Shown piece by piece: positions 44,150 through 63,341 of a stretch of 64,000 bases of DNA; position 1 is the first letter of the stretch, and each line of letters starts with the position of its first letter. A program made the position numbers and the translations under genes. The stretch is taken from positions 66,655 to 130,654 of the forward strand of contig CP129478.1 of NCBI GenBank assembly GCA_030583845.1, in the 5' to 3' direction. Below the pieces are notes generated by a model, which saw only the letters and a program-made list of their open reading frames with translations, was not told the DNA's origin and searched no databases. Source of the DNA: Candidatus Dojkabacteria bacterium (GTDB lineage Bacteria; Patescibacteriota; Dojkabacteria; SC72; JAHDCA01).

Positions 44150-45364
44150 ATGTATTTATCACAGAAATTACAACAAGAGAGAGAATTTAAAGGTCTAACT
44201 CAAAGAGAGCTTGCCGACTTATCTGGGGTAAATTACTCAACAATTACCAAGCTTGAGAGCGGTGTGTATCAAAATCCTACTCTCGATACCATTATGAAAA
44301 TAAGTAGCGCCCTTGAGATAAAGATTGAAAGTCTCTTACAACCGCGGAAAGAATTTGGAATGCCTTCTAACACAATGATTGAATCCCACGCTGAAGTCAA
44401 AGGTGTAAAATTTACCTTTATTGACCTCTTCGCAGGTATTGGAGGAATTAGAATTGCCTTTGAGAGGCAAGGCGGGCGCTCTTTGTTTTCTTCTGAAATT
44501 GATAAGTATGCGGTTAAAACCTACCAAGCTAACTACGGTGAGACGCCTGCTGGCGATATTACCCAAATTGATGCCACAAATATACCTGATCACGATATTT
44601 TACTAGCAGGATTTCCATGCCAACCTTTTTCAATCGCTGGAGTTTCAAAAAGGCAGAGTTTGGGCAGGGGTCACGGTTTCTTTGATGAAACAAAGGGAAC
44701 ATTATTTTTCGACATCGCAAGAATTATTGAAGTGAAGAGGCCTAAAATCGTGTTTCTCGAAAATGTGAAGAACCTTATGTCACATGATAAAGGAAGGACT
44801 TTCGAAGTAATAATCAACACACTAAAAGAGCTTGATTACATACCATACTATAAAGTTAATGACGGACAGCATTTTGTCCCACAGCACAGGGAAAGAACAA
44901 TTATTGTAGCTTTTGATAATAAAGTATTTAAAGGCAAAGAGAATTTTGAATTTCCAGAGCTACCTAAAAAAGAAGTGAGGCTCTCAGATATTCTTGAAAA
45001 AGAGGTTGACCCTAAATATACACTTACTGATAAACTGTGGGAGTATCTTCAAAACTATGCGAAAAAACATAAAGAAAAGGGTAATGGATTTGGTTATGGG
45101 CTTGCTGATTTTAATGGAATCACTAGAACCTTAAGTGCTAGGTATTACAAAGATGGATCAGAGATTCTTATCCCTCAGGAAGGTAAAAACCCAAGAAGGC
45201 TTACCCCAAGAGAATGTGCAAGACTTCAAGGTTTCCCTGAGGATTTCATAATTCCTGTTTCCGATACACAAGCATATAAGCAGTTCGGAAATGCTGTAGT
45301 TGTTCCTTTAATGGAGTACTTAGCTAATTCAGTTGTTAAATCATTAGGATATGTTAGAAAATAA
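44150..45364 (+). CDS. DNA (cytosine-5)-methyltransferase with an N-terminal XRE-type HTH regulatory domain (M.EcoRII/M.SsoII-like)
   Basis: N-terminal HTH ([23 protein letters not shown]). C5-MTase motifs [50 protein letters not shown] and [10 protein letters not shown]. Confidence 0.9.
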
Positions 45365-46529
45365 TTTTGCAGGTCAGGCAATTGAGGCTGTTAAAAGAGG
45401 TTCTGTAGCTTTCTCGAAATTTATAACTTCAAACGATGCTGGAGTAACTGGAGGTCATCAAAGTGGATTCCATCTACATAAGAACTCATACCCTCTTTTT
45501 TTTGAGACTCAAGGAGTCAAAGGTGAAAATAGTGAAAAATTTGCAAAGATAAAATGGCAGGGAGATTTTGAAACAGACAGCAGGTTTATCTACTATGGGG
45601 TCGGTACAAGAGATGAATACAGACTTACAAGGTTCGGCAAAGGATTTCCGTTTTTAACAGAGGAAAGCGTTGGAAACCTTCTTATTCTTACTAAACAGAC
45701 AGATGAGTACTACGAGGCGTTTGTACTTTCAAGTGATGATGAGATAGAAACCTTCTTCAGTGCATTCGGCATAAGTCCACAGGAAACAAATAAAATCATT
45801 CCTAAAACAAATACTGTAAGTGTTGAAGATCAGCTTATGAAGATGTTTGAGGCTTACATAGGTACTATCAGCGTTGATTTCCCTCTTACAACCGAGATTG
45901 CAGATAATGCTAGGAAAATAATTATGCAGGTTTCTGGAATATCTACAATTGATGTCAAATCTAATCCAGATAAGGAGCTTTTGAGATGGCTTGATACAGA
46001 GTATAAGTTATTTAAAACTATTGAGAATAATAGATATTCAAACATCATAGGGCAACCTTTTAAGGATGTAGATTCTTTCATACAAACAGCGAACAGCATT
46101 TTAAATAGAAGAAAAAGTAGAGCTGGAAAGTCACTTGAGCATCACCTTTCAAATATGTTTACAACTTTTGATTTGAAATTCAGTGAGCAGACTGTAACAG
46201 AAGAGCACAAAAAGCCTGATTTCATCTTCCCAAGCCCGGAAGCATATCACAATTTTTTATTTGATCAGAATAAGCTTGTTTTTCTTGCAGCGAAAACAAC
46301 ATGCAAAGACAGATGGAGACAGATCTTGAATGAAGCTGACAGAATCAAAGTAAAACATTTATTTACATTACAGCAGGGAATATCTTCCAATCAGATGAAA
46401 GAAATGACGCGCTACAATGTTAAACTTGTTGTTCCAAAAGAATATATAAACACTTATCCTAAGGAGTACAGAGAAGGAATTTATTCGCTTGGTCAGTTTG
46501 TAAGATACGTCGATGCAACTCAAAAATAG
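45351..46529 (+). CDS. EcoRII-family type IIE restriction endonuclease (likely CCWGG-type specificity)
   Basis: Overlaps the MTase end by 14 nt. The N-terminal effector domain ([18 protein letters not shown]) resembles the EcoRII-N B3-like domain. C-terminal catalytic-domain signatures [42 protein letters not shown] and HLFTLQQG match my recollection of EcoRII; this comparison is from memory and was not aligned. Confidence 0.7.
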
Positions 46530-52266: not shown

Positions 52267-52887
52267 TTACTCCGCTTCAACAGGCCAGTTCAATTTCATA
52301 AACCAGCTATTAAATATCTCTTTCGAGACAATTAGCCTACTGTTGTACTCCCCGAAGTCGAAGATCCTGCCAGTAAACCGACTTGGCTTGAGGTTCCCAG
52401 CGAGTATTTCTATACCCTCGTCACTTGCGACGCTTTCATACAATTTACCGAAGCTAGCCACAGGATCTACATCGATAGATGACAGTAACACTGGTGCTCT
52501 GAATTCATAATTCCGATACAGCAGGAAGTAGCCTTGATCAGTAACAACCAGCATCGCCATATTCCTATTTGTGTCCATTACTCCGTAGCATGCATTCTGA
52601 GCTGTACCGAACTTCCCATCCTGTTCAAGCCCTGTAAACCCAGTAAAGATTATAACCCTTGATTTTTCAATCATCTCAAGAGATTCATTTCCATTTTCAT
52701 ACTCCATAATCATCTCCTCCATCAAGGGAACAACTGCCGAGTAGTATGCTGTTTCTCCATCATTATGCTTGACCCATGGTGCACGATTGAATTCTTCCAT
52801 GTACAGCTCGAGGGGAAATCGCTCACTCTTCTCTCCGTACTCAACTGCCAGGTTTTCTAATCTCTCACTACTTGGTCCACCCATCAC
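52267..52887 (-). CDS. hypothetical protein translationally coupled to mutS, paralogue family member E
   Basis: 206 aa. Its start overlaps the mutS stop (ATGA). Segments SERFPLELY...APW and DQGYFLLYRNYEF are shared with the ORF at 49789. Confidence 0.4.
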   Translation of the reverse strand: MMGGPSSERLENLAVEYGEKSERFPLELYMEEFNRAPWVKHNDGETAYYSAVVPLMEEMIMEYENGNESLEMIEKSRVIIFTGFTGLEQDGKFGTAQNACYGVMDTNRNMAMLVVTDQGYFLLYRNYEFRAPVLLSSIDVDPVASFGKLYESVASDEGIEILAGNLKPSRFTGRIFDFGEYNSRLIVSKEIFNSWFMKLNWPVEAE

Positions 52888-55514
52888 TCAAACCTCCTCT
52901 TCAACTCCACCAGCTTATTCAGCGCCTCCACCGGCGTCATCCCATCTAGATCCAGCCCTTTCAACTCATTAATAAGCTCCGACTCCTGCGCAGAGAAGAA
53001 TGATAATTGATCAATGCTAGCTGCTTTGCTCGATTTCCCCTTAGTCGCTGCTGCTATCTGCTCATCATCAGACTCGCCCTTGCCATTTGATAGAGTAGAG
53101 AGGATCTCATTCGCTCGCGTTACCACCTCCTCAGGCAATCCAGCCAGCTGCGCTACATAGATGCCGTAGCTCCGATCAGTACCACCCTCGACGATCTTCC
53201 GCATGAAAGTTACTTCGCCTTTCTCCTCATCCTCGCTCACCATCACATTGTAGTTGCGGACAAATTCAGGGTGCTCGGCTGCCAGCTTCAGCAGCTCGTG
53301 ATAATGGGTAGCAAACAGTGTGCGAGCCTTGACTCGACTCACAAGATACTCGGAGAGAGCCCATGCAATGCTTACACCATCGTAGGTGCTTGTACCTCGA
53401 CCCACCTCATCCAGTATCACCAGGCTGTTTTCGGTCGCATTATTCAATATATTTGCCGCTTCCTCCATCTCCACCATAAATGTGCTCCGTCCCTGGCTCA
53501 GATTGTCTGAAGCACCTACTCGTGAGAACACACGATCGACCAGCGAGATCTCAGCATCATTTGCTGGCACGAATGAGCCGATCTGCGCCATCAAGACGAT
53601 AAGTGCGATCTGACGGATATAGGTTGATTTACCCGACATATTGGGGCCGGTGATGATGGCCATGCGATTGCCCATGATTGTCACATCGACATCGTTTGAT
53701 ACAAACTCATCATCTGAGATCTTCTCGACTACAGGGTGGCGGCCACCTGCTATCTTTAAAACTCCGTCGCGCACACCAAAATCATGCATGATAGGCTTGA
53801 TGTAAAGATTTGACCGCGCAATATTTGCAAACCCGGCCAGGACATCAAGCTTGCCAGTCTCATGAGATAGCTGCTTGATCGCTGTGAGGTAGGGGAGCAG
53901 CTCTTCCCGCAGCTCTTGGAAGATATTGTACTCGAGCTTGAAAAGCCTCTCCTCAGCGCCAAGGATCACCTCTTCTTTCTTCTTCAGCTCATCGGTAATG
54001 AAGCGCTCGCAATTTACCAAAGTCTGCTTGCGGATATAGTAGCCGGGGACTTTATCAATATGCGCATTAGTGACTTCTATGTAGTAGCCAAAAACCTTGT
54101 TGAATCCGATCTTGAGCGATGGGATGCCGGTCTTCGCTTTCTCGACCTCAACCATCTCTTGGACCCACTCGTTTTTCTGGCCTGAGTTGCTGCTGCCAGC
54201 CAGTGATCTTAATTCATCTACCTCTGGGCTGTAACCGGCTTTGACAATTCCACCCTCACTTATCGTAGTAGGTGGTGAATCCGAGATTGTAGAGTCAAGG
54301 CGGGTGATCAGGCTATTTATTGGGAGTTTTTCGTCGGAGAAGAGCTGGGCGAATTTAAATTTCTCAAGCAGCTCGCTATGCTCTGCTAATCTATCAGATA
54401 TTTGCAGCATATTTTGCAATGAAAGCTGCAACCCTTTCAAGTCGCGCGCTGAGGCTCTGTTTAGACCGACTTTGCCGACAATTCGCTCTGTGTCGCTTAC
54501 TTCAGATAGAAGCTTGCGGATTTCATTAAGTAGCTCAAAGTCATTGTGAAAATACTCGACAACTTCATGCCTTTCATTAATTTCATGAAGATTAAGCAGC
54601 GGATTAATTACCCAAGAGTAGAGCATACGCCTGCCCATGACAGTACGAGTGTCATCGAGCACCTCAAGCAGTGTGTCGTGAGATTGCCCAGTGTAGGAGT
54701 TCTGCACCAGGTCGAGGTTGCGGATTGTCGCTCGATCAAGAACCATCGTGCCCTGAGTCGAGAAGTATTGCGGTCTGCTGATATGCTCTGGGTTCATTTT
54801 CTGCGTATCCAAGATATAGCTGATAAGCATGGAAGCAGCTCTGGCCGCTAACTTATAGTCCGCTATAAAAAGCGAATCCAAGCTTTTCGCTTTATAGAAT
54901 TCTTTGAGCGTCTTCTCAGCGGCGGCTGGCTTGCTCTCTGCAGCGCTGATAAGCTGCACAGGGATTTCATTAAATTTTAATGAAGTCTCGGAGTCCGGAA
55001 GCAAAATCTCTACAGGGTCGTGCGCCGCAATTAATGAATTTAATGAATCCCGACTCAGCGGAATCTCAGTAATCTTAAATTCACCAGTTGAGAGATCTGC
55101 AAATGCAACGCCGATCTTTTCCTTATCCTGCACGACAGCCATCACATATGGATTTTTGCGCGAATCGGCCAGATCGCCATCAAGCGTACCTGGCGTGACT
55201 ACTCGAGTGACACCTCTTTTAACTACTCCCTTGGCCAGCTTAGGATCCTCAAGCTGATCAACAACAACAGCGCTGTGGCCTGATTTGATGATCTTGGGCA
55301 GATATTGATCAAGCGCATGGTGTGGGAAACCGGCAAGTGGGGTAGGGTCGGTAGCTTTGTCGCGGGTAGTTAATGTGATATTTAATACTTTAGAGGCCAG
55401 CTTGGCATCATCGCCAAATGTCTCATAGAAATCACCCATCCGAAACAGCACAATCTTGTCAGGATATTGCCTCTTGACGCCTAAATATTGTTCCATCATG
55501 GGGGTCTTTTTCAT
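52884..55514 (-). CDS. mutS: DNA mismatch repair protein MutS
   Basis: N-terminal mismatch-binding domain (MEQYLGVKRQYPDKIVLFRMGDFYETFGDDA). Walker A GPNMSGKST and an ABC signature. Length 876 aa. Confidence 0.9.
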   Translation of the reverse strand: MKKTPMMEQYLGVKRQYPDKIVLFRMGDFYETFGDDAKLASKVLNITLTTRDKATDPTPLAGFPHHALDQYLPKIIKSGHSAVVVDQLEDPKLAKGVVKRGVTRVVTPGTLDGDLADSRKNPYVMAVVQDKEKIGVAFADLSTGEFKITEIPLSRDSLNSLIAAHDPVEILLPDSETSLKFNEIPVQLISAAESKPAAAEKTLKEFYKAKSLDSLFIADYKLAARAASMLISYILDTQKMNPEHISRPQYFSTQGTMVLDRATIRNLDLVQNSYTGQSHDTLLEVLDDTRTVMGRRMLYSWVINPLLNLHEINERHEVVEYFHNDFELLNEIRKLLSEVSDTERIVGKVGLNRASARDLKGLQLSLQNMLQISDRLAEHSELLEKFKFAQLFSDEKLPINSLITRLDSTISDSPPTTISEGGIVKAGYSPEVDELRSLAGSSNSGQKNEWVQEMVEVEKAKTGIPSLKIGFNKVFGYYIEVTNAHIDKVPGYYIRKQTLVNCERFITDELKKKEEVILGAEERLFKLEYNIFQELREELLPYLTAIKQLSHETGKLDVLAGFANIARSNLYIKPIMHDFGVRDGVLKIAGGRHPVVEKISDDEFVSNDVDVTIMGNRMAIITGPNMSGKSTYIRQIALIVLMAQIGSFVPANDAEISLVDRVFSRVGASDNLSQGRSTFMVEMEEAANILNNATENSLVILDEVGRGTSTYDGVSIAWALSEYLVSRVKARTLFATHYHELLKLAAEHPEFVRNYNVMVSEDEEKGEVTFMRKIVEGGTDRSYGIYVAQLAGLPEEVVTRANEILSTLSNGKGESDDEQIAAATKGKSSKAASIDQLSFFSAQESELINELKGLDLDGMTPVEALNKLVELKRRFE
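54845..54861. repeat. solo copy of the 17-mer CCGCTAACTTATAGTCC inside the mutS coding sequence
   Basis: Identical to the left arm at 29092-29108. On the minus strand it encodes DYKLAA within MutS. No inverted partner is found nearby. Confidence 0.6.
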
Positions 55515-55971: not shown

Positions 55972-56538
55972 CTACGATAGACCAAACAGCGGATCACCAG
56001 AGTAATCCTTTTTGAGATTTCCCTCCAACTGTTCCAGATCCAGACGATTAGGATAGAACAATCTTGCGACTCTAGCTCCTTTTGGTACGAAATTGATGCC
56101 TACGTCCATGACATTATGCTGCGGCACTATACCTTTGTAATCAGTACCCTTAAGAGCAAGTCCAAATTGATCTCTTTCATACACAACCTGTATTTGTGTG
56201 AGCTCGTCAAGAGCCTCAACTACAACTACTTTGTAGATGTCATACGGGTAAAAGTATAAACGGCATTCCTGCATACTCGGCGTATCGTGTTCGCCCCTGA
56301 ATAGGGTAAGCTCTGTGTGCTGATTACCGCCCGCCTCCATAGTAGCCATCTGTAATCCCCAATCGTCTGCTATATGTAACTCATTCTCTCGAGTCACCAG
56401 AGACTCACCATTGTAGATCAGAATTTCTGTGTATACGATTGTTGCCATATTTACTCCTCTGCGCAATTGATTAATTCTACGTTTAGAGCACGACCATATT
56501 ATACTATGGGTTCTGCAACAATTCCATGACAAAAACAA
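55972..56538 (-). CDS. hypothetical protein
   Basis: 188-aa ORF. The likely start is at the internal Met (MATIVYTEILIYNG..., near 56449). Confidence 0.3.
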   Translation of the reverse strand: MFLSWNCCRTHSIIWSCSKRRINQLRRGVNMATIVYTEILIYNGESLVTRENELHIADDWGLQMATMEAGGNQHTELTLFRGEHDTPSMQECRLYFYPYDIYKVVVVEALDELTQIQVVYERDQFGLALKGTDYKGIVPQHNVMDVGINFVPKGARVARLFYPNRLDLEQLEGNLKKDYSGDPLFGLS

Positions 56539-56611: not shown

Positions 56612-59485
56612 CTACATCTTCATCACCATTCTTGCTTCGGTCTCCGCGACCACTCGCTTTGCTTCCATGTAAGCCTCTGGCTTTACCATCACTCCGTAGA
56701 CACCCCATTCCACAGCCTTCTTGATCAGGGCTGGATCATCCTCGGCGATTATATAGACACGCTGCTTAGAGCCGCGGGTCTGTGCCAGTATGCTCTCCAA
56801 TATTTTGGCGACGCTGCCAACACTTAGGTCATAGCGGACATTTTTCTCATGGACTGAGAAGCCTTGCATCTGTCGAGCCAGCCATGGGGTATTGATAATT
56901 ACACCATCAACGCCAGCTGCCAATATGTCGTCGACAAGTATCACTTCAGATGGGCGGTCGATCACTGCATATATCATAAGTGTGGTTGTGCGTCGCAATC
57001 CGGCTGCCGACATCTCTTTCTTGATATCTTTCAATAGGCTGCCATTAACTGGCGAGTGAAGGGCGATAGAGACGTTGCGGCTCTTGTACACGTTGCGAAC
57101 TCGCTTCAGTGTAAGCATTACTTTCTCAAAGAGTCGAGTATTCTGCATATAGCGGGCGACACCATTCATCTCGTCGGGGAGATCTTTCCCTTCCATCGAT
57201 GTACCCTTAACTAGCTCGCGGAACATGCCTACTGTGCCTGAGCCTAGTGATACAATAACCTCATTGCCTTTGGCTACATCAGAGAACTCATCGATCATTA
57301 CTTCAATATCTTTTGAATATTCACGGTATTTCTTCTCCTCGGCATAGGCGAGTGGGTGACGACCTTTTTCTACCATCACCATATCAAGATCGAGTAGGCC
57401 GTAGCCATCGGTCACATCTTTCAGGTCGTTATATTTCTCAACCCTTGCGCCATACTCTGGTGTTAACATTACCTTGGTAGCGGTTGCCATCTTGACAACC
57501 TGATCAGGTTTCGACGGTGTTGATTGAGCGTTATCTACAGCTCCCGTTTGTGCAATAGCATTCTGCAGCTGGTCTTCTGGCTTCTCGCGAAGGACTCGGT
57601 AGACGCTTCCAACAGTACCATCAATCTTTACCACTTCACCCTCAGTTATCAATGTCGTGGCAAGGCCTGTGCCGACTACTGCTGGGACTTCAAGCTCGCG
57701 ACAAAGTATGGCCACGTCGCTTGTCAATCCACCCTCATCCATCAATACACCGCCAGCTTCAGAGATATATTTCTCCATGTCTGGTGAGAACTTCTTGAGC
57801 AGCAGGATTGTCCCTTTTGTCACAATCAGCTTATCTGGCACCTTGTCGCCGATTACTTTGACCTCACCAGTAACTGCACCGGCACTCGCTCCGATTCCTG
57901 TTAGTAGGAACTCCATATTGTCTTTCACAGACTTCACACCTAGGTCAAGAAGCTTACCAACCTGTTTCTTTTCTACTTTCTCTTTGGCCTTCTCATTCTT
58001 CTGGGCTGCTCGCTCGCTCATCTGGCGGAATTTCTCGCTCAGCTTCTCCAATGTCTTCACATCTTTCTCTCGCTCCTTATACTCCTCGACAGCCTCTTTC
58101 TTTGGCATCTGCTCGACCTCTTCCTTCAGCTCGGCTGTCTCGCGATCTAGTCGAGTCTCTTCGACGGTGTACAGATCATCAACCTTTGCACCGACTGCCT
58201 TCTTCTTGGCTTCTTCTACATCTTTTTTGGCGAGCTTCCTATCTTCTGCGGCTTCTTCAGCCATCTTCGAGGCAACTACTGTACCAATTATGGCTTTCTC
58301 TTTAAGCTTCTCCTCTTTGACTATGTCGACTGCTACATCGAATACTGTGTCTGGAGCCTTTTCTTCTGTTTTAGGCGCTTGAGTGCTGTCACTGGTCTCG
58401 AGCGGATCTTTGATAACTGGCTCTGCAGGAACCTCAGTGGCAGACGCAGCCTGCATCTGAGCTTTAGCCTCTTTCTCTTCACTCTTTGGAGCTGGCTCGA
58501 TGATTGGCTTCGATTGGAGTACCCAAACAGTGCCGCTTTCCCAGAGCCACTCAATAATCTGTGGTGATCCTACGCGATCTTCAGCGATTAAAGCTACTTT
58601 GGCTACAAACTCTACATTCTTATCTTCAAGCTTCTGCTGGTGACTCCAAGCCTGCGAGATCTGGATCCTGTGGTGATCAACCTTCTGGCCAGGCTTACGA
58701 TCCTGTGAGAGATTGCGAATCTTCATCCAGTCCTGAGGGGAGATATGCTTCTCGAGAATTTCAAGGTTCTTCTTGTTCAGCAGGTACTGGTCTGGGGTAA
58801 TTGTACCGTCAGCGATTACATCTCCAAGTCCGAATACTGCTTCGATGCTGACTTTCTTACTATCGTTTGTGATTGGGTCAACAGTGTATGCCACTCCAGA
58901 TACCTCCGGCTGGATCATTTTCTGTACTACGACCGCCATCTGTACCTCGGTAAGGTCGACAGAGTGGTTGGCTGCATATGCGACGACACTATCTCGGAAA
59001 AGTGATAGGTAGACATGCTTGACCGATTCGACCAGCGCGTTGATATTGCGGACATTTAATTCAGTCGCAAATACACCCGAGAATGATACGCCAGGATCTT
59101 TCGGATATACGACGGAGGAGCGAACTGCTACCCAGGCATTTGAGAATCCAGAGAGTCGTGAATATGCACGCAGCAATTCTTCGTAGAAATCTCTGTCAAA
59201 CTCAGCCTCGAGTATAAGTTTCTCGAGCTTGCTTATATCGGGCTCCTTCGCATTCTTGATTACATTTTCTAGCTTATGGTCAAATGCTTTGAGCAAGAAT
59301 TTCTTGTAAACTTCTGGAGAGATAACGAAGAACCCTGGGGTAGGGATGTCCATGCTTCTGAGCTGAAAGAGGCTTCGACCTTTGCGGCCAACTAATGCTT
59401 CATTTACATCTTTAAAGGCGTAATCCTCATGGAAGAAGATCGACTGATCTTGCGTGTCTTCAGACTTTTTAGCGAAACCGAACAT
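56612..59485 (-). CDS. PEP-utilizing-enzyme-family protein (PEP synthase / pyruvate phosphate dikinase-like) with a K/E-rich coiled-coil insert and His-to-Asp substitution at the phospho-histidine
   Basis: N-terminal PEP/pyruvate-binding ATP-grasp domain. About 180 aa of EEKEAKAQ.../KEKVEKK low-complexity coiled-coil. Mobile domain GGLTSDVAILCRELEVPAVVG, compared with the consensus GGxTSHAAIxAR. C-terminal PEP-utilizers TIM-barrel region. Confidence 0.7.
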   Translation of the reverse strand: MFGFAKKSEDTQDQSIFFHEDYAFKDVNEALVGRKGRSLFQLRSMDIPTPGFFVISPEVYKKFLLKAFDHKLENVIKNAKEPDISKLEKLILEAEFDRDFYEELLRAYSRLSGFSNAWVAVRSSVVYPKDPGVSFSGVFATELNVRNINALVESVKHVYLSLFRDSVVAYAANHSVDLTEVQMAVVVQKMIQPEVSGVAYTVDPITNDSKKVSIEAVFGLGDVIADGTITPDQYLLNKKNLEILEKHISPQDWMKIRNLSQDRKPGQKVDHHRIQISQAWSHQQKLEDKNVEFVAKVALIAEDRVGSPQIIEWLWESGTVWVLQSKPIIEPAPKSEEKEAKAQMQAASATEVPAEPVIKDPLETSDSTQAPKTEEKAPDTVFDVAVDIVKEEKLKEKAIIGTVVASKMAEEAAEDRKLAKKDVEEAKKKAVGAKVDDLYTVEETRLDRETAELKEEVEQMPKKEAVEEYKEREKDVKTLEKLSEKFRQMSERAAQKNEKAKEKVEKKQVGKLLDLGVKSVKDNMEFLLTGIGASAGAVTGEVKVIGDKVPDKLIVTKGTILLLKKFSPDMEKYISEAGGVLMDEGGLTSDVAILCRELEVPAVVGTGLATTLITEGEVVKIDGTVGSVYRVLREKPEDQLQNAIAQTGAVDNAQSTPSKPDQVVKMATATKVMLTPEYGARVEKYNDLKDVTDGYGLLDLDMVMVEKGRHPLAYAEEKKYREYSKDIEVMIDEFSDVAKGNEVIVSLGSGTVGMFRELVKGTSMEGKDLPDEMNGVARYMQNTRLFEKVMLTLKRVRNVYKSRNVSIALHSPVNGSLLKDIKKEMSAAGLRRTTTLMIYAVIDRPSEVILVDDILAAGVDGVIINTPWLARQMQGFSVHEKNVRYDLSVGSVAKILESILAQTRGSKQRVYIIAEDDPALIKKAVEWGVYGVMVKPEAYMEAKRVVAETEARMVMKM

Positions 59486-59774: not shown

Positions 59775-61013
59775 TTAAATCTTCCCTTCGGCCTTCAATT
59801 TCTGATAGTTCACGTAGAAGTCGTATCCGATCTTTATAAGCACCATTGCCGGGACAGCCATGATTGCTCCGGTTATACCACCGATACTCAATCCTACTAG
59901 CAATCCTACAAATACAACAATCGGCTTAACACCAATCACATTCCCCATGATTTTTGGCACAAGAATTGCATTCTCAATCTGGTAGAACACAATATATGCA
60001 CCAGCAACCATCAAGGCATTGGCGACACCGTTGCTAACCAAAGCTACAACAACCGCAGGTATAAATGAGATCACTGCTCCACCACTAGGAATCAGCTCTG
60101 CCATAGCTGCAAGCAGCGCGAGCGGAAGCGCAAATGGTACACCAAAAACAGTAAGTATTAGCCATACTGACACACCAACAATGAGCGAGAGTGCTCCTTG
60201 TCCTAGTAGCCAGCGACCAAGCTTATCCTCAACATCACGCAGCATTCCTTTCGCCAGCGTGCGTTTATTTTCGTCCATAATCCTCAGGAATACGATATCC
60301 AAGAATGTATCGTGCTCGGAGATAATGTAGATAGATAAAATAACAGAGAGGAAGAGTGAGCCTAGCACAGCACCAAAGTCAGAGATCGTCCTGAATGTCT
60401 CGGCAGCTCGATCGCCACCTGAGTTAAGGATCAATTCACCTCTAATTAGACGGCCACCATACTCGTTTAGCGCCGCGGCCACCTGCTCTGGATCTACGTC
60501 GGCCACAGCAGCAATGATGTGCGAGACATCATTGATAAGCTGCTCCTTCATTGAAGGGAAAGAGTGTGAGATCGCAGATATTTCTTGCGCGAGCGGAGCG
60601 AGCACCATAATAAGCAGAGCAATAACTATTACCGCAAGCCCGAGATATGTGATCGCAATCGCCCAGAATTTGCCAATGCCTCTGCGCATTAATTTCCTTA
60701 CAGGTGGGAGCAGCACAGCTGAGAACACGAAGCCTAAGAAGAAGACCGACAATAGGCTCAGAAGCCGCATCCCGAGATAGAGCGCACCTAAGGTGATAAG
60801 CACCATTGCGATGCTTTTCCATGTGATCTCGATCTTATGGACAACGGTTGTCGGATCGACCTCGTGCCCTTTAGTTACATAATTAATGAAATTGTTCACG
60901 CCTTCTGCGCTATTTTTCGACTTCTGTGATTTGCGGCTTCGACTCGAGGCTTTCGCGCCATCTCTCTTATAATCGATCTTCCCGTTGTTGTTTACCATGC
61001 TAAGATTTTTCAT
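59775..61013 (-). CDS. AI-2E family transporter (PerM/UPF0118)
   Basis: 412 aa with about 8 TM helices and a topology and length typical of AI-2E. Confidence 0.7.
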   Translation of the reverse strand: MKNLSMVNNNGKIDYKRDGAKASSRSRKSQKSKNSAEGVNNFINYVTKGHEVDPTTVVHKIEITWKSIAMVLITLGALYLGMRLLSLLSVFFLGFVFSAVLLPPVRKLMRRGIGKFWAIAITYLGLAVIVIALLIMVLAPLAQEISAISHSFPSMKEQLINDVSHIIAAVADVDPEQVAAALNEYGGRLIRGELILNSGGDRAAETFRTISDFGAVLGSLFLSVILSIYIISEHDTFLDIVFLRIMDENKRTLAKGMLRDVEDKLGRWLLGQGALSLIVGVSVWLILTVFGVPFALPLALLAAMAELIPSGGAVISFIPAVVVALVSNGVANALMVAGAYIVFYQIENAILVPKIMGNVIGVKPIVVFVGLLVGLSIGGITGAIMAVPAMVLIKIGYDFYVNYQKLKAEGKI

Positions 61014-61677
61014 TTCCTGACCCGTTTTTCTCTAATTTGGAATCTTCTCCATTATTATACAGCATCTCCAGGCTATCAAGCAGAACCGGAATTATAATCA
61101 TCGCAAACCCAATCCCGAAAAGTGCGCCTGTAACAATTCGCTTAGGGATATTGTCGTAATAAGCCTCCGGTAGCTGTCCGACTAGGAAAAACTCTGTCGC
61201 ATACTGAAATACCCCATCGACCGCCATAGGCATCATAAAGAGCAGTATCATCCACCACGGAAATTTCTTCACCCTCTTCTTCTTGCGCGCTATTGCCAAG
61301 TAGATCCACCCAAAGATCAGGAATGCTAAATAGAGTGGCACATCTCTCATGCAGAGGGGCATCTTATACCCCATCTCCGAATTTCCCACATATGGATAGC
61401 CGAAGAATCGCTCATCAAACGGCTCCGGAATCTCCGGGTTTTCAAGCGGAATCACGCCGGCTTCTTGCAGCTCATCACGTGTGTAGAAATTTATTATCCC
61501 TTCCTCACCAAATAGAAATGCCGACCTCTCCACCCTCTGGTGGCAGAAAATTCTATATATCGAGTGTATCCCCATGCCAGCATCTGTGAAGCCAAGCCTC
61601 AGCAAAGTTGGCGCAGCAAATGCCAACAGTACATATATGGATACAAATATTAGAAGGATCTCGGGTAATCTTCTCAT
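61000..61677 (-). CDS. DUF2085-like membrane protein
   Basis: CHQRVERSAFLFG motif with several TM helices. Overlaps the AI-2E gene by 14 nt. Confidence 0.4.
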   Translation of the reverse strand: MRRLPEILLIFVSIYVLLAFAAPTLLRLGFTDAGMGIHSIYRIFCHQRVERSAFLFGEEGIINFYTRDELQEAGVIPLENPEIPEPFDERFFGYPYVGNSEMGYKMPLCMRDVPLYLAFLIFGWIYLAIARKKKRVKKFPWWMILLFMMPMAVDGVFQYATEFFLVGQLPEAYYDNIPKRIVTGALFGIGFAMIIIPVLLDSLEMLYNNGEDSKLEKNGSGNEKS

Positions 61678-63341
61678 AAGTGTGGCGTCTCAGAAATTAT
61701 ATTTTGGTCAATTAGAACAACCTTTAGCTGATAGTAGCTCTCAGGGATCAGGTCACTTATCAGGCTCGATTCTGCAGCAGTAGTGGTCCACATTTTATAG
61801 ATCTCCGCGATATCGCTGTTTCGCACCCGTGACTGGGTCAGCATGAGAAAATCCGGCTCAGACTTAATATCAAGCATTGACCCTAGAGCCAAGACACGAT
61901 CGCCATCTTTCGAGCTACCAATCGCAATTAGCGGTAAGATCTCTAGCCACTCAAGTAGCAGTCTCGAGCATTCCCGCCCAAGCAGTGTGGCAATTATGCT
62001 TAGCCTGTACTTCGCTGTAGCCTGATTATCTTTCATCCACTCGCGAAGCTCTTTTGCCAACTCTAGCTCCTCTTTGGAGGCGACAAGTATGAGCGGCTTC
62101 ACCTCAAGAGTGATCAAGCTACATAGTAACTCAATCTGCTTATCCAGCATCTCTAGCAAGTCTGTAGCCACTGGCAGCCTCTCCCTATCGATCTCCCAGT
62201 TGGGTGAAAGCTCTTGGTCTGGCTGCTGCTCGAGCTTACTGTTTACATAATCATCAAATATCCCTCCTAGCATCACCAGCTTGGCGTTGCCCTTGCTTAG
62301 CGAGGCAATGCCGTGCTCGTAATACTCGCTTTTATCCCTCAATTCTGCCTGCATCGAGACATCGGTAGAGACCAGCCTTGAGACATGACGTATCGATGTT
62401 GGATCATCCTTGTCGGCAAGTTCGTTGTAGGGCAGCGGCTCCTGCCTCTTGCGGCTGCTTTTATCAAGCACATCTTGTAGATCTGCCAGGTATAGCTCTC
62501 GACCAAGCTCGGAGACAATATCGGGTAGCTGTGCAAGAGTTCGCTTCGTAGCGACTTCGGTCTTTCCAGCCGTGTCAAATCTCACCGTAGCCTTATCCAT
62601 CCCGTGAGCTTTGTAAAATTGCACGAGCTTGAGCAGCTTGTCATTTAGCGACATGCGTACCTTTGATAGTTGATTCATCATGAAGAGCCACTCTTTTTCT
62701 GAGATCTCGTAATGCTGGGCTAATTGCATAGGAGAAGACTTTGGAAGTCGCGCCATATATGCCAAAACCTCATCTAGCAATGACTCAATATACTTGCTTT
62801 GGTCGTTATCTTGCTCAGGTAGCTTTAGATCTGGCATCAATACGTTGAGGAATTCTAGCAGCCTGGATAAGCCATCCTCAGATAGTGAGAGCATAGCTTC
62901 GTCGTTTATAACTCCGAGGTCGCGCAATGTTCTCGCCAGTGTGCCTCGATCAGCTGGGTAGCTATTGGCATACATTATTAATGCCAAGCGAAGGGTAGGG
63001 GAGTCCTGCTTGGAAAAATAGCGATTTCTTCTAAAGAGTGCGCCAAGCTTATATTTGTTATCTAGAAGTAGGATCGCTCTAAATATTGGCTCGAAATCCG
63101 CTATCCGATCTGAGTTGTGCGGCTTTGTAACTATTTCTTGCATAGGCTGAGCAACAGGGGGAGCAACTGATTGTGGCGCCGACACTTCGCGCTCGGGTTG
63201 AGCTACAGGTATATTTTCAGACATGCCGCCGGTAGTAGGATGGTCACTTGCGTCGCTCATCTCTGCCTCTTTCAGCTTTTTCGGGTCGATCCGGTCTATA
63301 AGATCTTGATATTTACTACTCATACCGTAAGTATATCGCAT
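61674..63341 (-). CDS. hypothetical 555-aa protein
   Basis: Long soluble ORF with a 4-nt overlap on the downstream gene and no motif recognised. Confidence 0.35.
   Translation of the reverse strand: MRYTYGMSSKYQDLIDRIDPKKLKEAEMSDASDHPTTGGMSENIPVAQPEREVSAPQSVAPPVAQPMQEIVTKPHNSDRIADFEPIFRAILLLDNKYKLGALFRRNRYFSKQDSPTLRLALIMYANSYPADRGTLARTLRDLGVINDEAMLSLSEDGLSRLLEFLNVLMPDLKLPEQDNDQSKYIESLLDEVLAYMARLPKSSPMQLAQHYEISEKEWLFMMNQLSKVRMSLNDKLLKLVQFYKAHGMDKATVRFDTAGKTEVATKRTLAQLPDIVSELGRELYLADLQDVLDKSSRKRQEPLPYNELADKDDPTSIRHVSRLVSTDVSMQAELRDKSEYYEHGIASLSKGNAKLVMLGGIFDDYVNSKLEQQPDQELSPNWEIDRERLPVATDLLEMLDKQIELLCSLITLEVKPLILVASKEELELAKELREWMKDNQATAKYRLSIIATLLGRECSRLLLEWLEILPLIAIGSSKDGDRVLALGSMLDIKSEPDFLMLTQSRVRNSDIAEIYKMWTTTAAESSLISDLIPESYYQLKVVLIDQNIISETPHL

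What the first reader, a model, noticed from the sequence alone, without database searches (positions are those of the whole stretch)
57690..57760. PEP-synthase/PPDK homologue with the catalytic phospho-histidine replaced by aspartate and a long K/E coiled-coil insert
The 957-aa protein has all three domains of the PEP-utilizing enzyme family. However, the mobile-domain signature reads GGLTSDVAILCRELEVPAVVG, whereas the canonical GG-TSH-AAI contains the phospho-carrier His. The Asp codon is at 57716-57718 on the minus strand. About 180 residues of lysine/glutamate-rich coiled-coil sequence are also inserted between the N-terminal nucleotide-binding domain and the mobile domain. A His-to-Asp change would abolish phosphoryl relay, and Asp can mimic phospho-His. 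That suggests a non-catalytic, regulatory or scaffolding derivative rather than a metabolic dikinase.
Basis: partly seen in the sequence, partly recalled or inferred. Interest (0 to 1): 0.55.

Follow-up and report, generated by a model that had tools for sequence, protein, structure and literature searches.

The report
PEP-synthase paralogue with Asp for His
This gene belongs to a protein family conserved across the candidate phylum Dojkabacteria that descends from phosphoenolpyruvate (PEP) synthase but has lost the phosphate-carrying histidine (now a conserved aspartate) and the whole pyruvate/PEP site while keeping its ATP site, so it cannot be the metabolic enzyme it is annotated as, and its real job is unknown.

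Summary
ORF 56612-59485 (-), 957 aa, is a three-domain PEP-synthase homologue. Asp590 (GAC, 57716-57718) aligns with the catalytic His of E. coli PpsA, P. furiosus PEP synthase and Listeria rifampin phosphotransferase.

- **Not a sequencing error.** The Asp is present in 119 of the 120 closest homologues. In related loci it is encoded by GAT (72) and GAC (9). The swivel domain contains no His.
Every pyruvate/PEP/Mg residue of the C-terminal barrel and the catalytic Cys are replaced, so this is not a PEP synthase.
- **The ATP site is kept.** The ATP-phosphate ligands of the ATP-grasp domain (K35, R122, T141, E312, Q324) are kept in 69-71 of 71 aligned family members, and this is the best-conserved domain. 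"Non-catalytic" is therefore unproven.
- **It is a paralogue.** A canonical PEP synthase sits at a different locus in another Dojkabacteria genome. The family occurs in at least 577 species-level genomes and almost always lies between an AI-2E transporter gene and mutS.
- **The K/E-rich segment** is a 202-aa predicted helical linker without heptad periodicity. About 90 aa are family-wide and about 110 aa are specific to this lineage.

Best reading: an ATP-binding, non-dikinase derivative. An acyl-phosphate-carrying Asp remains possible. This is a new variant of a known kind, of moderate interest.

The parts
56612..59485 (-). Complete CDS of the PEP-synthase-like protein (957 aa plus stop). It is identical to NCBI WKZ31264.1, 'PEP/pyruvate-binding domain-containing protein', Candidatus Dojkabacteria MAG, contig 1,036,382 bp.
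58451..59398 (-). ATP-grasp nucleotide-binding domain (residues 30-345). ATP-phosphate/Mg ligand equivalents K35, R122, T141, E312 and Q324 are kept. The PPDK D321 equivalent (I310) is variable in the family. The R337 equivalent is an invariant Lys (K326).
   Evidence: Pfam PF01326, 211 bits. Foldseek TM 0.83-0.86 to the RPH ATP-binding domain 5hv6. Residue counts. RPH mutagenesis in PMC4844700.
57899..58504 (-). Expanded K/E-rich linker (residues 328-529, 202 aa, 35% K+E). Predicted helices at 381-416, 420-430, 448-459 and 462-514, with disordered stretches at 350-374 and 439-446.
   Evidence: Family median linker is 90 aa. Mean pairwise identity is 0.24. No heptad pattern and no DNA tandem repeat.
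57590..57898 (-). Swivel ('PEP-utilizers mobile') domain, residues 530-632. It contains no histidine.
   Evidence: Pfam PF00391, 64.9 bits
57671..57733 (-). Signature loop and helix GGLTSDVAILCRELEVPAVVG (residues 585-605). The family consensus is GG-[LIV]-T-S-D-x-[AS]-I-L-C-R-E-x-x-I-P-A.
57716..57718 (-). GAC codon for Asp590, at the position of the phosphocarrier His (E. coli H421, P. furiosus H442, RPH-Lm H825).
56615..57481 (-). C-terminal TIM-barrel domain (residues 669-957) with the PEP-synthase PEP-binding fold but a rebuilt active-site face. Changes relative to E. coli PpsA:
- R-x-E becomes D699-x-D701.
- The Arg of VRLSD becomes Ser.
- The Arg of GFRG is lost.
- GSNDM becomes N865-T-P-W.
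- The catalytic Cys becomes Y911.

Newly conserved residues are D699, D701, H710, H810, E847 and N865.
   Evidence: No PF02896 hit.
59775..61013 (-). Context: an AI-2E family transporter gene immediately upstream on the same strand. This position is conserved in 72 of 77 related loci with enough flank; the median gap is about 55 nt.
52884..55514 (-). Context: mutS downstream on the same strand. It is immediately downstream in 64 of 72 related loci with enough flank; the median gap is about 70 nt. Here it is separated from the gene by an orphan ORF.

Best explanation
The gene encodes a member of a Dojkabacteria (WS6)-wide paralogous family derived from phosphoenolpyruvate synthase of the Candidate Phyla Radiation (CPR), which has been retired from PEP/pyruvate chemistry.

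Shown:
- The phosphocarrier His is replaced by a conserved Asp.
- All pyruvate/PEP/Mg ligands and the catalytic Cys of the C-terminal barrel are replaced.
- All three folds are kept under purifying selection.
- The phosphate/Mg ligands of the ATP-grasp domain are kept.

Inferred:
- The protein still binds Mg-ATP, and may hydrolyse it, in the ATP-grasp domain.
- The Asp-tipped swivel loop still docks into that site, but no longer shuttles a phosphoryl group to a pyruvate site.
- The carboxylate most likely acts as a fixed negative charge or metal ligand (a phospho-His mimic or latch). ATP binding would then drive a conformational or regulatory switch rather than a dikinase reaction.
- The K/E-rich helical linker is a fast-evolving, length-variable tether between the ATP-grasp and swivel domains.

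The cellular role is unknown. The gene sits in a conserved housekeeping block between an AI-2E transporter gene and mutS.
For: 1. His to Asp at the exact catalytic column against three experimentally characterised enzymes.
2. The trait is family-wide. It is Asp in 119 and Asn in 1 of the 120 nearest homologues, which go down to about 40% identity. In 80 GTDB species loci the count is D 71, N 2, E 1. Both Asp codons are used, GAT 72 and GAC 9.
3. The C-domain catalytic set is replaced: R-x-E to D-x-D, VRLSD to V-S-L-G-S, GFRG lost, GSNDM to NTPWL, C to Y/I/V. P. furiosus Cys756, stated to be catalytic in bioRxiv 10.1101/2022.08.11.503304, aligns with Y911.
4. NCBIfam PEP-synthase equivalog scores are far below their cut-offs: 325 against 598, and 300 against 740.
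5. ATP-site equivalents of RPH K22/R117/T136/E297 are kept in 71, 71, 69 and 71 of 71 sequences. The ATP-grasp domain is the most conserved domain.
6. The swivel loop is conserved as strongly as structural residues: T588, R596, E597 in 71/71, P601 listed as invariant, and D590 in 70/71.
7. A short subfamily (about 735 aa, GGINSD) occupies the same position upstream of mutS. It keeps the ATP-grasp and swivel domains but has a shrunken, poorly conserved C-terminal region. This argues that no conserved acceptor site exists in the C-domain.
8. Sister clades in the representative library carry Y, F, S, P, K, R or Q at this column, so relatives function without any phospho-acceptor there.
9. A canonical PEP synthase (TCH, GTNDLT, VCGQ) exists in a Dojkabacteria MAG at a different locus, so this family is a paralogue and not the organism's PEP synthase.
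Against: - No biochemical data exist, and ATP binding is inferred from residue conservation only.
- Two ATP-grasp positions that are invariant in canonical enzymes differ. The PPDK D321 equivalent is variable (N37/S15/D6/A5/I4). The R337 equivalent is an invariant Lys. The ATP chemistry may therefore be altered or weakened.
- Near-absolute conservation of Asp, rather than drift among small polar residues, is also what a catalytic nucleophile would show.
- The long subfamily has a newly conserved acidic/His cluster on the catalytic face of the barrel (D699, D701, H810, E847, N865). This could be a new active site and therefore an acceptor for a relay.
- I could not inspect the coordinates of the model to see where the swivel loop docks.
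Confidence: 0.45

Rival explanations
1. Acyl-phosphate swivel relay. The ATP-grasp domain phosphorylates the carboxylate of Asp590, which is the ancestral chemistry of ATP-grasp enzymes. The swivel domain then carries the aspartyl-phosphate to a new acceptor. The acceptor would be either the rebuilt acidic/His pocket of the C-terminal barrel or an external partner.
For: - The Asp is conserved in about 95% or more of members across subfamilies that share only 30-36% identity.
- The ATP phosphate ligands are intact.
- The whole swivel loop is conserved.
- The long subfamily has conserved D699, D701, H810, E847 and N865 at the C-terminal ends of barrel strands.
[quoted passage not shown] 1999, title cited in PMC6763467).
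- ATP-grasp enzymes generally form acyl-phosphates (established knowledge).
Against: - Occasional Asn (3 cases) and Ala (1 case, P0129) at the position cannot be phosphorylated.
- The C-domain pocket is not conserved in the short orthologous subfamily.
- Related clades have non-phosphorylatable residues at this column.
- The PPDK D321 and R337 equivalents, canonical for the His-phosphorylation step, are changed.
- The new pocket is acidic, which is unfavourable for receiving a phosphorylated loop without metals.
Confidence: 0.22
2. A fully inert pseudoenzyme or scaffold. No ligand chemistry is left, and the protein is retained for assembly or structural reasons. One example would be oligomerisation through the C-terminal domain, as in the 24-mer archaeal PEP synthases that are its best solved-structure matches by sequence.
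For: - The His and the entire PEP site are lost.
- The best sequence matches among solved structures are the multimeric archaeal enzymes 8a8e and 9dae, including the C-terminal helix.
- The linker is long, charged and variable.
Against: - The ATP-grasp domain, not the C-terminal oligomerisation domain, is the most conserved part.
- The specific phosphate/Mg ligands are kept in 69-71 of 71 sequences.
- In the short subfamily the C-terminal domain decays while the ATP-grasp and swivel domains are kept.
Confidence: 0.15
3. Another residue of the swivel loop has taken over as phospho-acceptor. Candidates are the invariant Thr588 or Ser589, or the family-specific Cys595. Asp590 would then serve as a general base or metal ligand.
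For: - T588 is present in 71/71, S589 in 70/71 and C595 in 67/71 sequences.
- A preprint on P. furiosus PEP synthase argues for phosphorylation on the Thr of the T-S-H motif (bioRxiv 10.1101/2022.08.11.503304).
- Canonical enzymes have Ala or Ser where the family has Cys595.
Against: - C595 is not kept in the short subfamily, which has A, S or T there.
- T and S are equally conserved in canonical enzymes, where in PPDK and PEP synthase the Thr is a regulatory site rather than a catalytic one (established knowledge).
- There is no acceptor site downstream.
Confidence: 0.06
4. An artefact: a sequencing or assembly error (CAC read as GAC), a decaying pseudogene, or a functional PEP synthase with the His placed elsewhere.
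For: GAC and CAC differ by one base.
Against: - The Asp is found in hundreds of independent assemblies and with both codons.
- The ORF is intact at 957 aa, with 49-60% mean pairwise identity in the three domains across the family.
- No His is present in the swivel domain.
- The C-domain catalytic residues are independently missing.
Confidence: 0.01

Closest known systems
Phosphoenolpyruvate synthase (PpsA; pyruvate, water dikinase, EC 2.7.9.2), especially the CPR and archaeal type (PDB 8a8e P. furiosus, 9dae S. marinus, 2ols N. meningitidis)
   Same: - Same three-domain order: ATP-grasp, swivel, TIM barrel.
- Full-length sequence alignment, E 5e-65 to 5e-57.
- Fold match of each domain.
- The ATP-phosphate ligands and the GG-x-T-S loop scaffold are kept.
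- The nearest His-bearing relatives are CPR PEP synthases from Microgenomates and WWE3.
   Different: - His to Asp.
- The two PEP-binding Arg, the Mg ligands (E, N-D) and the catalytic Cys are all replaced.
- PF02896 is not detected.
- Equivalog scores are about half the cut-offs.
- The inter-domain linker is 90-200 aa instead of about 27.
- It is a paralogue, located next to mutS.
Pyruvate phosphate dikinase (PPDK)
   Same: Same superfamily, the same swivelling-domain architecture and an ATP-grasp N-domain. Foldseek gives E 4e-28 to 1kbl.
   Different: - TIGR01828 scores 44 bits against a cut-off of 843.
- The equivalents of His455, Arg561, Arg617, Glu745, Asn768/Asp769 and Cys831 are all changed. 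The PPDK numbering is from memory of the C. symbiosum literature.
- The D321 equivalent is variable and the R337 equivalent is Lys.
Rifampin phosphotransferase (RPH) and the PigC/RedH/HpeI-type ATP-grasp plus swivel kinases
   Same: - The ATP-grasp domain is the closest structural match, TM 0.83-0.86 to 5hv6.
- The equivalents of K22, R117, T136 and E297 are kept.
- These enzymes show that the ATP-grasp and swivel pair can be re-used with a different third domain.
   Different: - RPH keeps the catalytic His (His825).
- RPH has the domain order ATP-grasp, substrate domain, swivel.
- NF041857 scores 177 against a cut-off of 999.
HPr H15D (engineered His-to-Asp phosphocarrier of the PTS)
   Same: An active-site His of a PEP-dependent phosphorelay protein is replaced by Asp. 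[quoted passage not shown] 1999, cited).
   Different: It is an unrelated fold and a laboratory mutant with poor kinetics. Here the Asp is natural, conserved across a phylum, and sits on a swivel domain facing an ATP-grasp site.
Other His-less PEP-synthase-like clades seen in the 1.84-billion-protein representative library
   Same: The same ATP-grasp and swivel backbone with the catalytic column changed. It is D in several clades and Y, F, S, P, K, R, Q or E in others.
   Different: They are separate clades with different C-terminal regions. Their taxonomy and context are unknown, and none is described in the literature I could search.

Membership tests
Phosphoenolpyruvate synthase (EC 2.7.9.2; TIGR01418 / NF005057) | N-terminal ATP-grasp nucleotide-binding domain (PF01326) | tested here: met
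   211 bits over residues 30-345. The fold matches with TM 0.83-0.86.
Phosphoenolpyruvate synthase (EC 2.7.9.2; TIGR01418 / NF005057) | Swivel domain (PF00391) | tested here: met
   64.9 bits over residues 556-626.
Phosphoenolpyruvate synthase (EC 2.7.9.2; TIGR01418 / NF005057) | Phosphocarrier His in the G-G-x-T-[SC]-H motif | tested here: not met
   D590 aligns with H421 (E. coli), the His of 8a8e and 9dae, and RPH His825. There is no His in the swivel domain.
Phosphoenolpyruvate synthase (EC 2.7.9.2; TIGR01418 / NF005057) | C-terminal PEP/pyruvate-binding TIM barrel (PF02896) | tested here: inconclusive
   The fold is present, with TM 0.81-0.83 to 9dae and 8a8e, and it aligns by phmmer. Pfam PF02896 gives no hit at E <= 0.1.
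Phosphoenolpyruvate synthase (EC 2.7.9.2; TIGR01418 / NF005057) | Pyruvate/PEP and Mg ligands (two Arg, Glu, Asn-Asp) and the catalytic Cys | tested here: not met
   R-x-E becomes D699-x-D701, the Arg of VRLSD becomes Ser, GSNDM becomes NTPWL, and C751 (P. furiosus C756) becomes Y911. The same losses are seen family-wide.
Phosphoenolpyruvate synthase (EC 2.7.9.2; TIGR01418 / NF005057) | Score above the curated equivalog cut-off | tested here: not met
   NF005057 scores 325.5 against 598. TIGR01418 scores 300.1 against 739.75.
Pyruvate phosphate dikinase (TIGR01828) | Score above the curated cut-off, plus the catalytic His and Cys | tested here: not met
   44.4 bits against 843.45. The His and Cys are absent.
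Rifampin phosphotransferase (NF041857) | Score above the cut-off, a C-terminal His swivel domain and a central rifampin-binding domain | tested here: not met
   177 bits against 999. The domain order is that of PEP synthase, not RPH.
Dead-enzyme paralogue (pseudoenzyme) of a PEP-utilising enzyme | Loss of the catalytic residues of the parent reaction, with the fold retained under purifying selection | tested here: met
   Catalytic residues are lost. Domain identities are 0.49-0.60 against 0.24-0.29 in the linkers. A canonical paralogue exists in the phylum.
Dead-enzyme paralogue (pseudoenzyme) of a PEP-utilising enzyme | Absence of any remaining catalytic activity | not testable with these tools
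   Conservation of the ATP-site residues argues against complete inertness. This needs biochemistry.
ATP-grasp enzymes working through an acyl-phosphate | A carboxylate acceptor positioned at the gamma-phosphate of bound ATP | not testable with these tools
   Asp590 occupies the acceptor position of the swivel loop by homology.

The most novel reading that the evidence does not exclude
The family is a natural 'phospho-aspartate swivel' enzyme. The PEP-synthase ATP-grasp domain would have reverted to classical ATP-grasp chemistry and phosphorylate the carboxylate of Asp590. The swivelling domain would then deliver this acyl-phosphate to a new acceptor. That acceptor could be the rebuilt D699/D701/H810/E847/N865 pocket or a partner protein such as the neighbouring transporter or MutS. 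This would be the first PEP-utilising-family enzyme to run on an aspartyl-phosphate instead of a phosphohistidine.
Probability: 0.2. Interest if true: 0.85.

Novelty: new variant of a known kind. Interest (0 to 1): 0.5.

Why it matters
1. **Annotation and metabolism.** Pipelines label these proteins 'pyruvate, water dikinase' or 'phosphoenolpyruvate synthase/pyruvate phosphate dikinase' (JGI names). Metabolic reconstructions of CPR bacteria invoke PEP synthase to close lower glycolysis where pyruvate kinase is missing (PMC7304191). In Dojkabacteria, this family cannot fill that role.

2. **Enzymology.** It is a natural experiment on the swivelling-domain mechanism. The carrier His is swapped for a carboxylate in front of an intact ATP-grasp site, and the swap is conserved in hundreds of species. 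Either outcome, phospho-mimic switch or acyl-phosphate carrier, would be informative about how PEP-utilising enzymes evolve new functions.

3. **Biology of a minimal genome.** A protein of about 850-960 aa is kept in genomes of about 1 Mb, in a fixed position next to mutS. It is likely to do something important that is currently unknown.

Tried and rejected
- **Sequencing error or pseudogene.** Rejected on comparative evidence.
- **His elsewhere in the motif or domain.** Rejected: the swivel domain has no His, and there is no partially conserved His column.
- **Coiled coil.** The heptad analysis of the predicted helices is poor, with 5 of 16 a/d slots hydrophobic in the 53-residue helix. There are few i/i+4 salt-bridge pairs, so a classical ER/K single alpha-helix is not shown either.
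- **Insert generated by DNA tandem duplication.** No tandem repeats were found.
- **Promoter and terminator scan around the gene.** Counts did not exceed those of shuffled sequence, so it is uninformative.
- **Functional inference from neighbours.** The AI-2E-gene-mutS order is very conserved. It lies inside a larger conserved housekeeping block (ClpP, trigger factor, sortase ... HisRS, PBP1, PheT), so I do not treat it as evidence of a functional link.
- **Literature searches.** I searched for a described Asp variant, His-less PEP synthases in Patescibacteria, AI-2E/PEP-synthase links, and PPDK residue papers. Nothing relevant turned up.
- **Model coordinates.** I could not read them to measure where the swivel loop docks.
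- **Whole-genome check.** I could not test whether this particular genome also encodes a canonical PEP synthase, PPDK or pyruvate kinase. Only the 64-kb window is available, and it holds no second homologue.


Full report
**1. What is there**

The window carries an intact 957-codon ORF on the minus strand, 56612-59485. The minus-strand sequence at 57740-57700 reads GGA TGA GGG TGG ATT GAC AAG CGA CGT GGC C. In frame this gives D-E-G-G-L-T-S-D-V-A, with the Asp codon GAC at 57718-57716.

- Pfam detects the PPDK_N ATP-grasp domain (residues 30-345, 211 bits) and the PEP-utilizers mobile domain (556-626, 65 bits). It does not detect PF02896.
- NCBIfam's PEP-synthase equivalogs score about half of their cut-offs: 325.5 against 598, and 300.1 against 739.75.
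- Against solved structures, the protein aligns end to end with the multimeric archaeal PEP synthases 8a8e (P. furiosus) and 9dae (S. marinus). In those alignments, and in that with rifampin phosphotransferase (5hv2), D590 lies under the catalytic His: GGRTSH, GGMTSH, GGLMTH.
- E. coli PpsA, fetched from NC_000913.3, gives the same answer: H421 aligns with D590.
- An AlphaFold2 model built on a 71-sequence family alignment has mean pLDDT 85. Its C-terminal 290 residues superpose on the PEP-binding domains of 9dae and 8a8e (TM 0.81-0.83). Its N-domain superposes on the RPH ATP-binding domain (TM 0.83-0.86).

**2. The substitution is a conserved family trait, not an error**

- The protein is identical to NCBI WKZ31264.1 from a Candidatus Dojkabacteria MAG with a 1.04-Mb contig.
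- All 120 best homologues, down to about 40% identity, have Asp (119) or Asn (1) at this column, inside a family signature GG-[LIV]-T-S-D-x-[AS]-I-L-C-R-E-x-x-I-P-A.
- A scan of one genome per GTDB species found at least 577 genomes encoding a relative. The record titles name Dojkabacteria, WS6 and Patescibacteria, plus generic 'uncultured Candidatus Saccharibacteria' labels on one MAG series.
- In the 80 loci kept, the residue is D in 71, N in 2 and E in 1. Across all loci held, the Asp codon is GAT 72 times and GAC 9 times. Selection is therefore on the amino acid.
- The swivel domain of the query has no His, and no swivel column has His in 10% or more of the family.

**3. The loss of dikinase machinery is much wider than one residue**

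Alignment with E. coli PpsA and with canonical CPR PEP synthases, and the phmmer alignments, show that every residue class of the pyruvate/PEP site is changed:

| Canonical motif | In this protein | Family-wide |
|---|---|---|
| G-L-x-R-x-E | G-L-L-D699-L-D701 | D 70/71 and D/E 71/71 |
| V-R-L-S-D | V-S-L-G-S | same pattern |
| G-F-R-G | Arg absent | same pattern |
| C-E-I-P | I-D-R-P | not counted |
| G-S-N-D-M | N865-T-P-W | N 65/71 at position 865 |
| G-I-C-G-Q (Ec C751; P. furiosus C756, called catalytic in bioRxiv 10.1101/2022.08.11.503304) | Y911 | I, F, V, T or Y |

This explains why PF02896 does not fire. The protein cannot carry out the pyruvate-to-PEP half-reaction by the known mechanism. 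The roles of the PPDK residues R561, R617, E745, N768/D769 and C831 are from my memory of the C. symbiosum literature.

**4. What is kept**

The ATP-grasp domain is the best-conserved part of the family:

| Region | Mean pairwise identity | Columns at least 90% conserved |
|---|---|---|
| ATP-grasp domain | 0.60 | 34% |
| Swivel domain | 0.56 | 29% |
| C-terminal barrel | 0.49 | 15% |
| Two linkers | 0.24-0.29 | 0% |

(all)

- The residues that position the ATP phosphates and Mg in rifampin phosphotransferase are K22, R117, T136 and E297, from structure and mutagenesis (PMC4844700). They correspond to K35, R122, T141 and E312, which are present in 71, 71, 69 and 71 of 71 sequences. Q324 is present in 70 of 71.
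- Two positions that are invariant in canonical enzymes differ. The Asp of P-Q-D-I-E-W is variable (N37/S15/D6/A5/I4; Ile in the query). The Arg of Q-x-R-P is an invariant Lys, K326. The nucleotide site is therefore probably functional but modified.
- The C-terminal barrel of the long subfamily has acquired its own conserved polar set: D699, D701, H710, H810, E847 and N865. Several of these lie at the C-terminal ends of predicted beta-strands, where TIM-barrel active sites sit.

**5. Evolutionary setting**

A profile search of 1.84 billion representative proteins places the family at the top.

- The nearest His-bearing full-length relative, P0137, groups with canonical PEP synthases of Microgenomates, WWE3 and other CPR bacteria.
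- One canonical enzyme is annotated from a Dojkabacteria MAG: P0343 (MCA9382041.1), with TCH, GTNDLT and VCGQ. It lies in a different neighbourhood, between uvrB/transglutaminase genes and ftsZ/ftsA. The Asp family is therefore a paralogue, not simply this phylum's version of PEP synthase.
- A shorter subfamily (about 720-750 aa, GGINSD; for example WKZ30183.1) is also from Dojkabacteria and sits directly upstream of mutS. It keeps the ATP-grasp and swivel domains well, but its C-terminal 215 residues are shrunken and poorly conserved.
- Other related clades carry Y, F, S, P, K, R, Q or E at the His column. Loss of the phosphocarrier has therefore happened repeatedly or early in this radiation.

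**6. Genomic context**

- In 72 of 77 related loci with enough flank, an AI-2E family transporter gene lies immediately upstream on the same strand (median gap about 55 nt).
- In 64 of 72 loci, mutS lies immediately downstream (median gap about 70 nt). The window has the same order.
- In the window, a 188-codon orphan ORF sits between the gene and mutS. In a 78%-identical relative, that slot holds an IS200-like Y1 transposase.
- The triplet lies inside a larger conserved housekeeping block: ClpP, trigger factor, sortase ... HisRS, PBP1, PheT. I therefore treat the adjacency as weak evidence for a functional link.

**7. The K/E-rich segment**

- The linker between the ATP-grasp and swivel domains is 202 aa (328-529) with 36 Glu and 35 Lys. 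The family median is 90 aa (range 86-209), and E. coli has about 27 aa. The expansion to about 200 aa is shared only with the two closest relatives.
- It is predicted to be mostly helical, with a 53-residue helix (462-514) and disordered stretches.
- It has no heptad pattern and no DNA repeat, and it is the least conserved part of the protein.
- It is best described as a fast-evolving charged helical tether, not a demonstrated coiled coil.

**8. Mechanism**

Shown: the parent reaction is impossible, the fold and the ATP site are under selection, and the Asp is under selection.

Inferred as most likely (about 0.45): the protein still binds Mg-ATP, and the swivel loop still visits the ATP-grasp site. 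The carboxylate acts as a fixed charge or metal ligand rather than a phosphoryl shuttle, which gives an ATP-responsive switch. The reasons are:
- there is no conserved acceptor site across the two orthologous subfamilies;
- relatives manage with non-phosphorylatable residues at this column;
- rare Asn or Ala variants exist within the family.

The main rival (about 0.2) is that Asp590 is phosphorylated. ATP-grasp enzymes classically make acyl-phosphates from carboxylates. [quoted passage not shown] 1999, cited). The long subfamily also has a new conserved acidic/His pocket. A completely inert scaffold (about 0.15) fits poorly with the conservation pattern of the ATP site.

**9. Verdict**

I found no description of this family in the searchable literature. 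It is a new variant of a known kind. It has practical importance for CPR metabolic annotation, and a modest chance of revealing a phospho-aspartate version of the swivelling-domain mechanism.

Noticed in passing
window 55972-56538 (-): A 188-codon ORF (TTG start; an internal ATG gives about 158 aa) lies between the PEP-synthase-like gene and mutS. It has no Pfam hit and no tblastn match in any of about 85 related loci. In a 78%-identical relative (L091 9008-9601), the same slot holds an IS200-like Y1 transposase gene. This intergenic slot therefore seems to be an insertion hot spot.
   Followed up: partly
window 44150-46529 (+): An EcoRII-type restriction-modification pair. It consists of a C5 cytosine methyltransferase with an N-terminal HTH (404 aa), followed by an EcoRII-N/EcoRII-C endonuclease (392 aa). 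It lies in the stretch between hisS and mutS, which is only a few hundred bases to about 4 kb long in the other Dojkabacteria loci examined.
   Followed up: no
representative-library proteins P0163, P0165, P0175, P0177, P0181-P0183, P0207 and others: Giant proteins of 1,150-2,650 aa combine a PEP-synthase-type ATP-grasp domain with two to six tandem PEP-utilizer swivel domains. Each swivel domain has its own catalytic His. Their origin and function were not examined.
   Followed up: no
representative-library proteins P0161, P0205, P0222, P0256: These are PEP-synthase homologues whose swivel motif is split: GGxTC, then about 340-480 aa, then HAAI, directly before the catalytic His. This is the pattern expected for an intein inserted at the active site. 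An intein of this kind is known in Methanocaldococcus PEP synthase (from memory).
   Followed up: no
representative-library proteins P0141, P0147, P0149, P0150, P0154, P0157, P0172, P0176, P0195, P0208, P0239, P0247, P0251, P0253: Further PEP-synthase-like clades have S, F, Y, K, R, P or Q at the catalytic His column. Some (P0141, P0147, P0149) keep the G-x-R-G and Y-R-L-S-D motifs of the C-domain. Loss of the phosphocarrier is therefore widespread in uncultivated lineages.
   Followed up: partly
locus L089 8001-10211 (P0265, WKZ30183.1) and relatives: A short (about 735 aa) orthologous subfamily of the Asp-bearing protein occurs in other Dojkabacteria. It lies directly upstream of mutS but without the AI-2E gene next to it. 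Its C-terminal domain is reduced to about 215 poorly conserved residues.
   Followed up: yes
window 61674-63341 (-) and L091 2177-3895: A 555-aa ORF with no Pfam match lies upstream of the DUF2085 and AI-2E genes. A 572-aa gene with no recorded Pfam family occupies the same position in a related genome. Homology between the two was not tested. This ORF gave no tblastn match in the 87 other related loci searched.
   Followed up: no
P0129, P0052 (= L013), L039: These are rare family members with Ala (P0129, GGLSSALAILCRE) or Asn (P0052, GGLTSNVAVLARE; L039, GGYSSNISMLCRE) instead of Asp at the His column. They are useful natural controls for whether the carboxylate is essential.
   Followed up: partly
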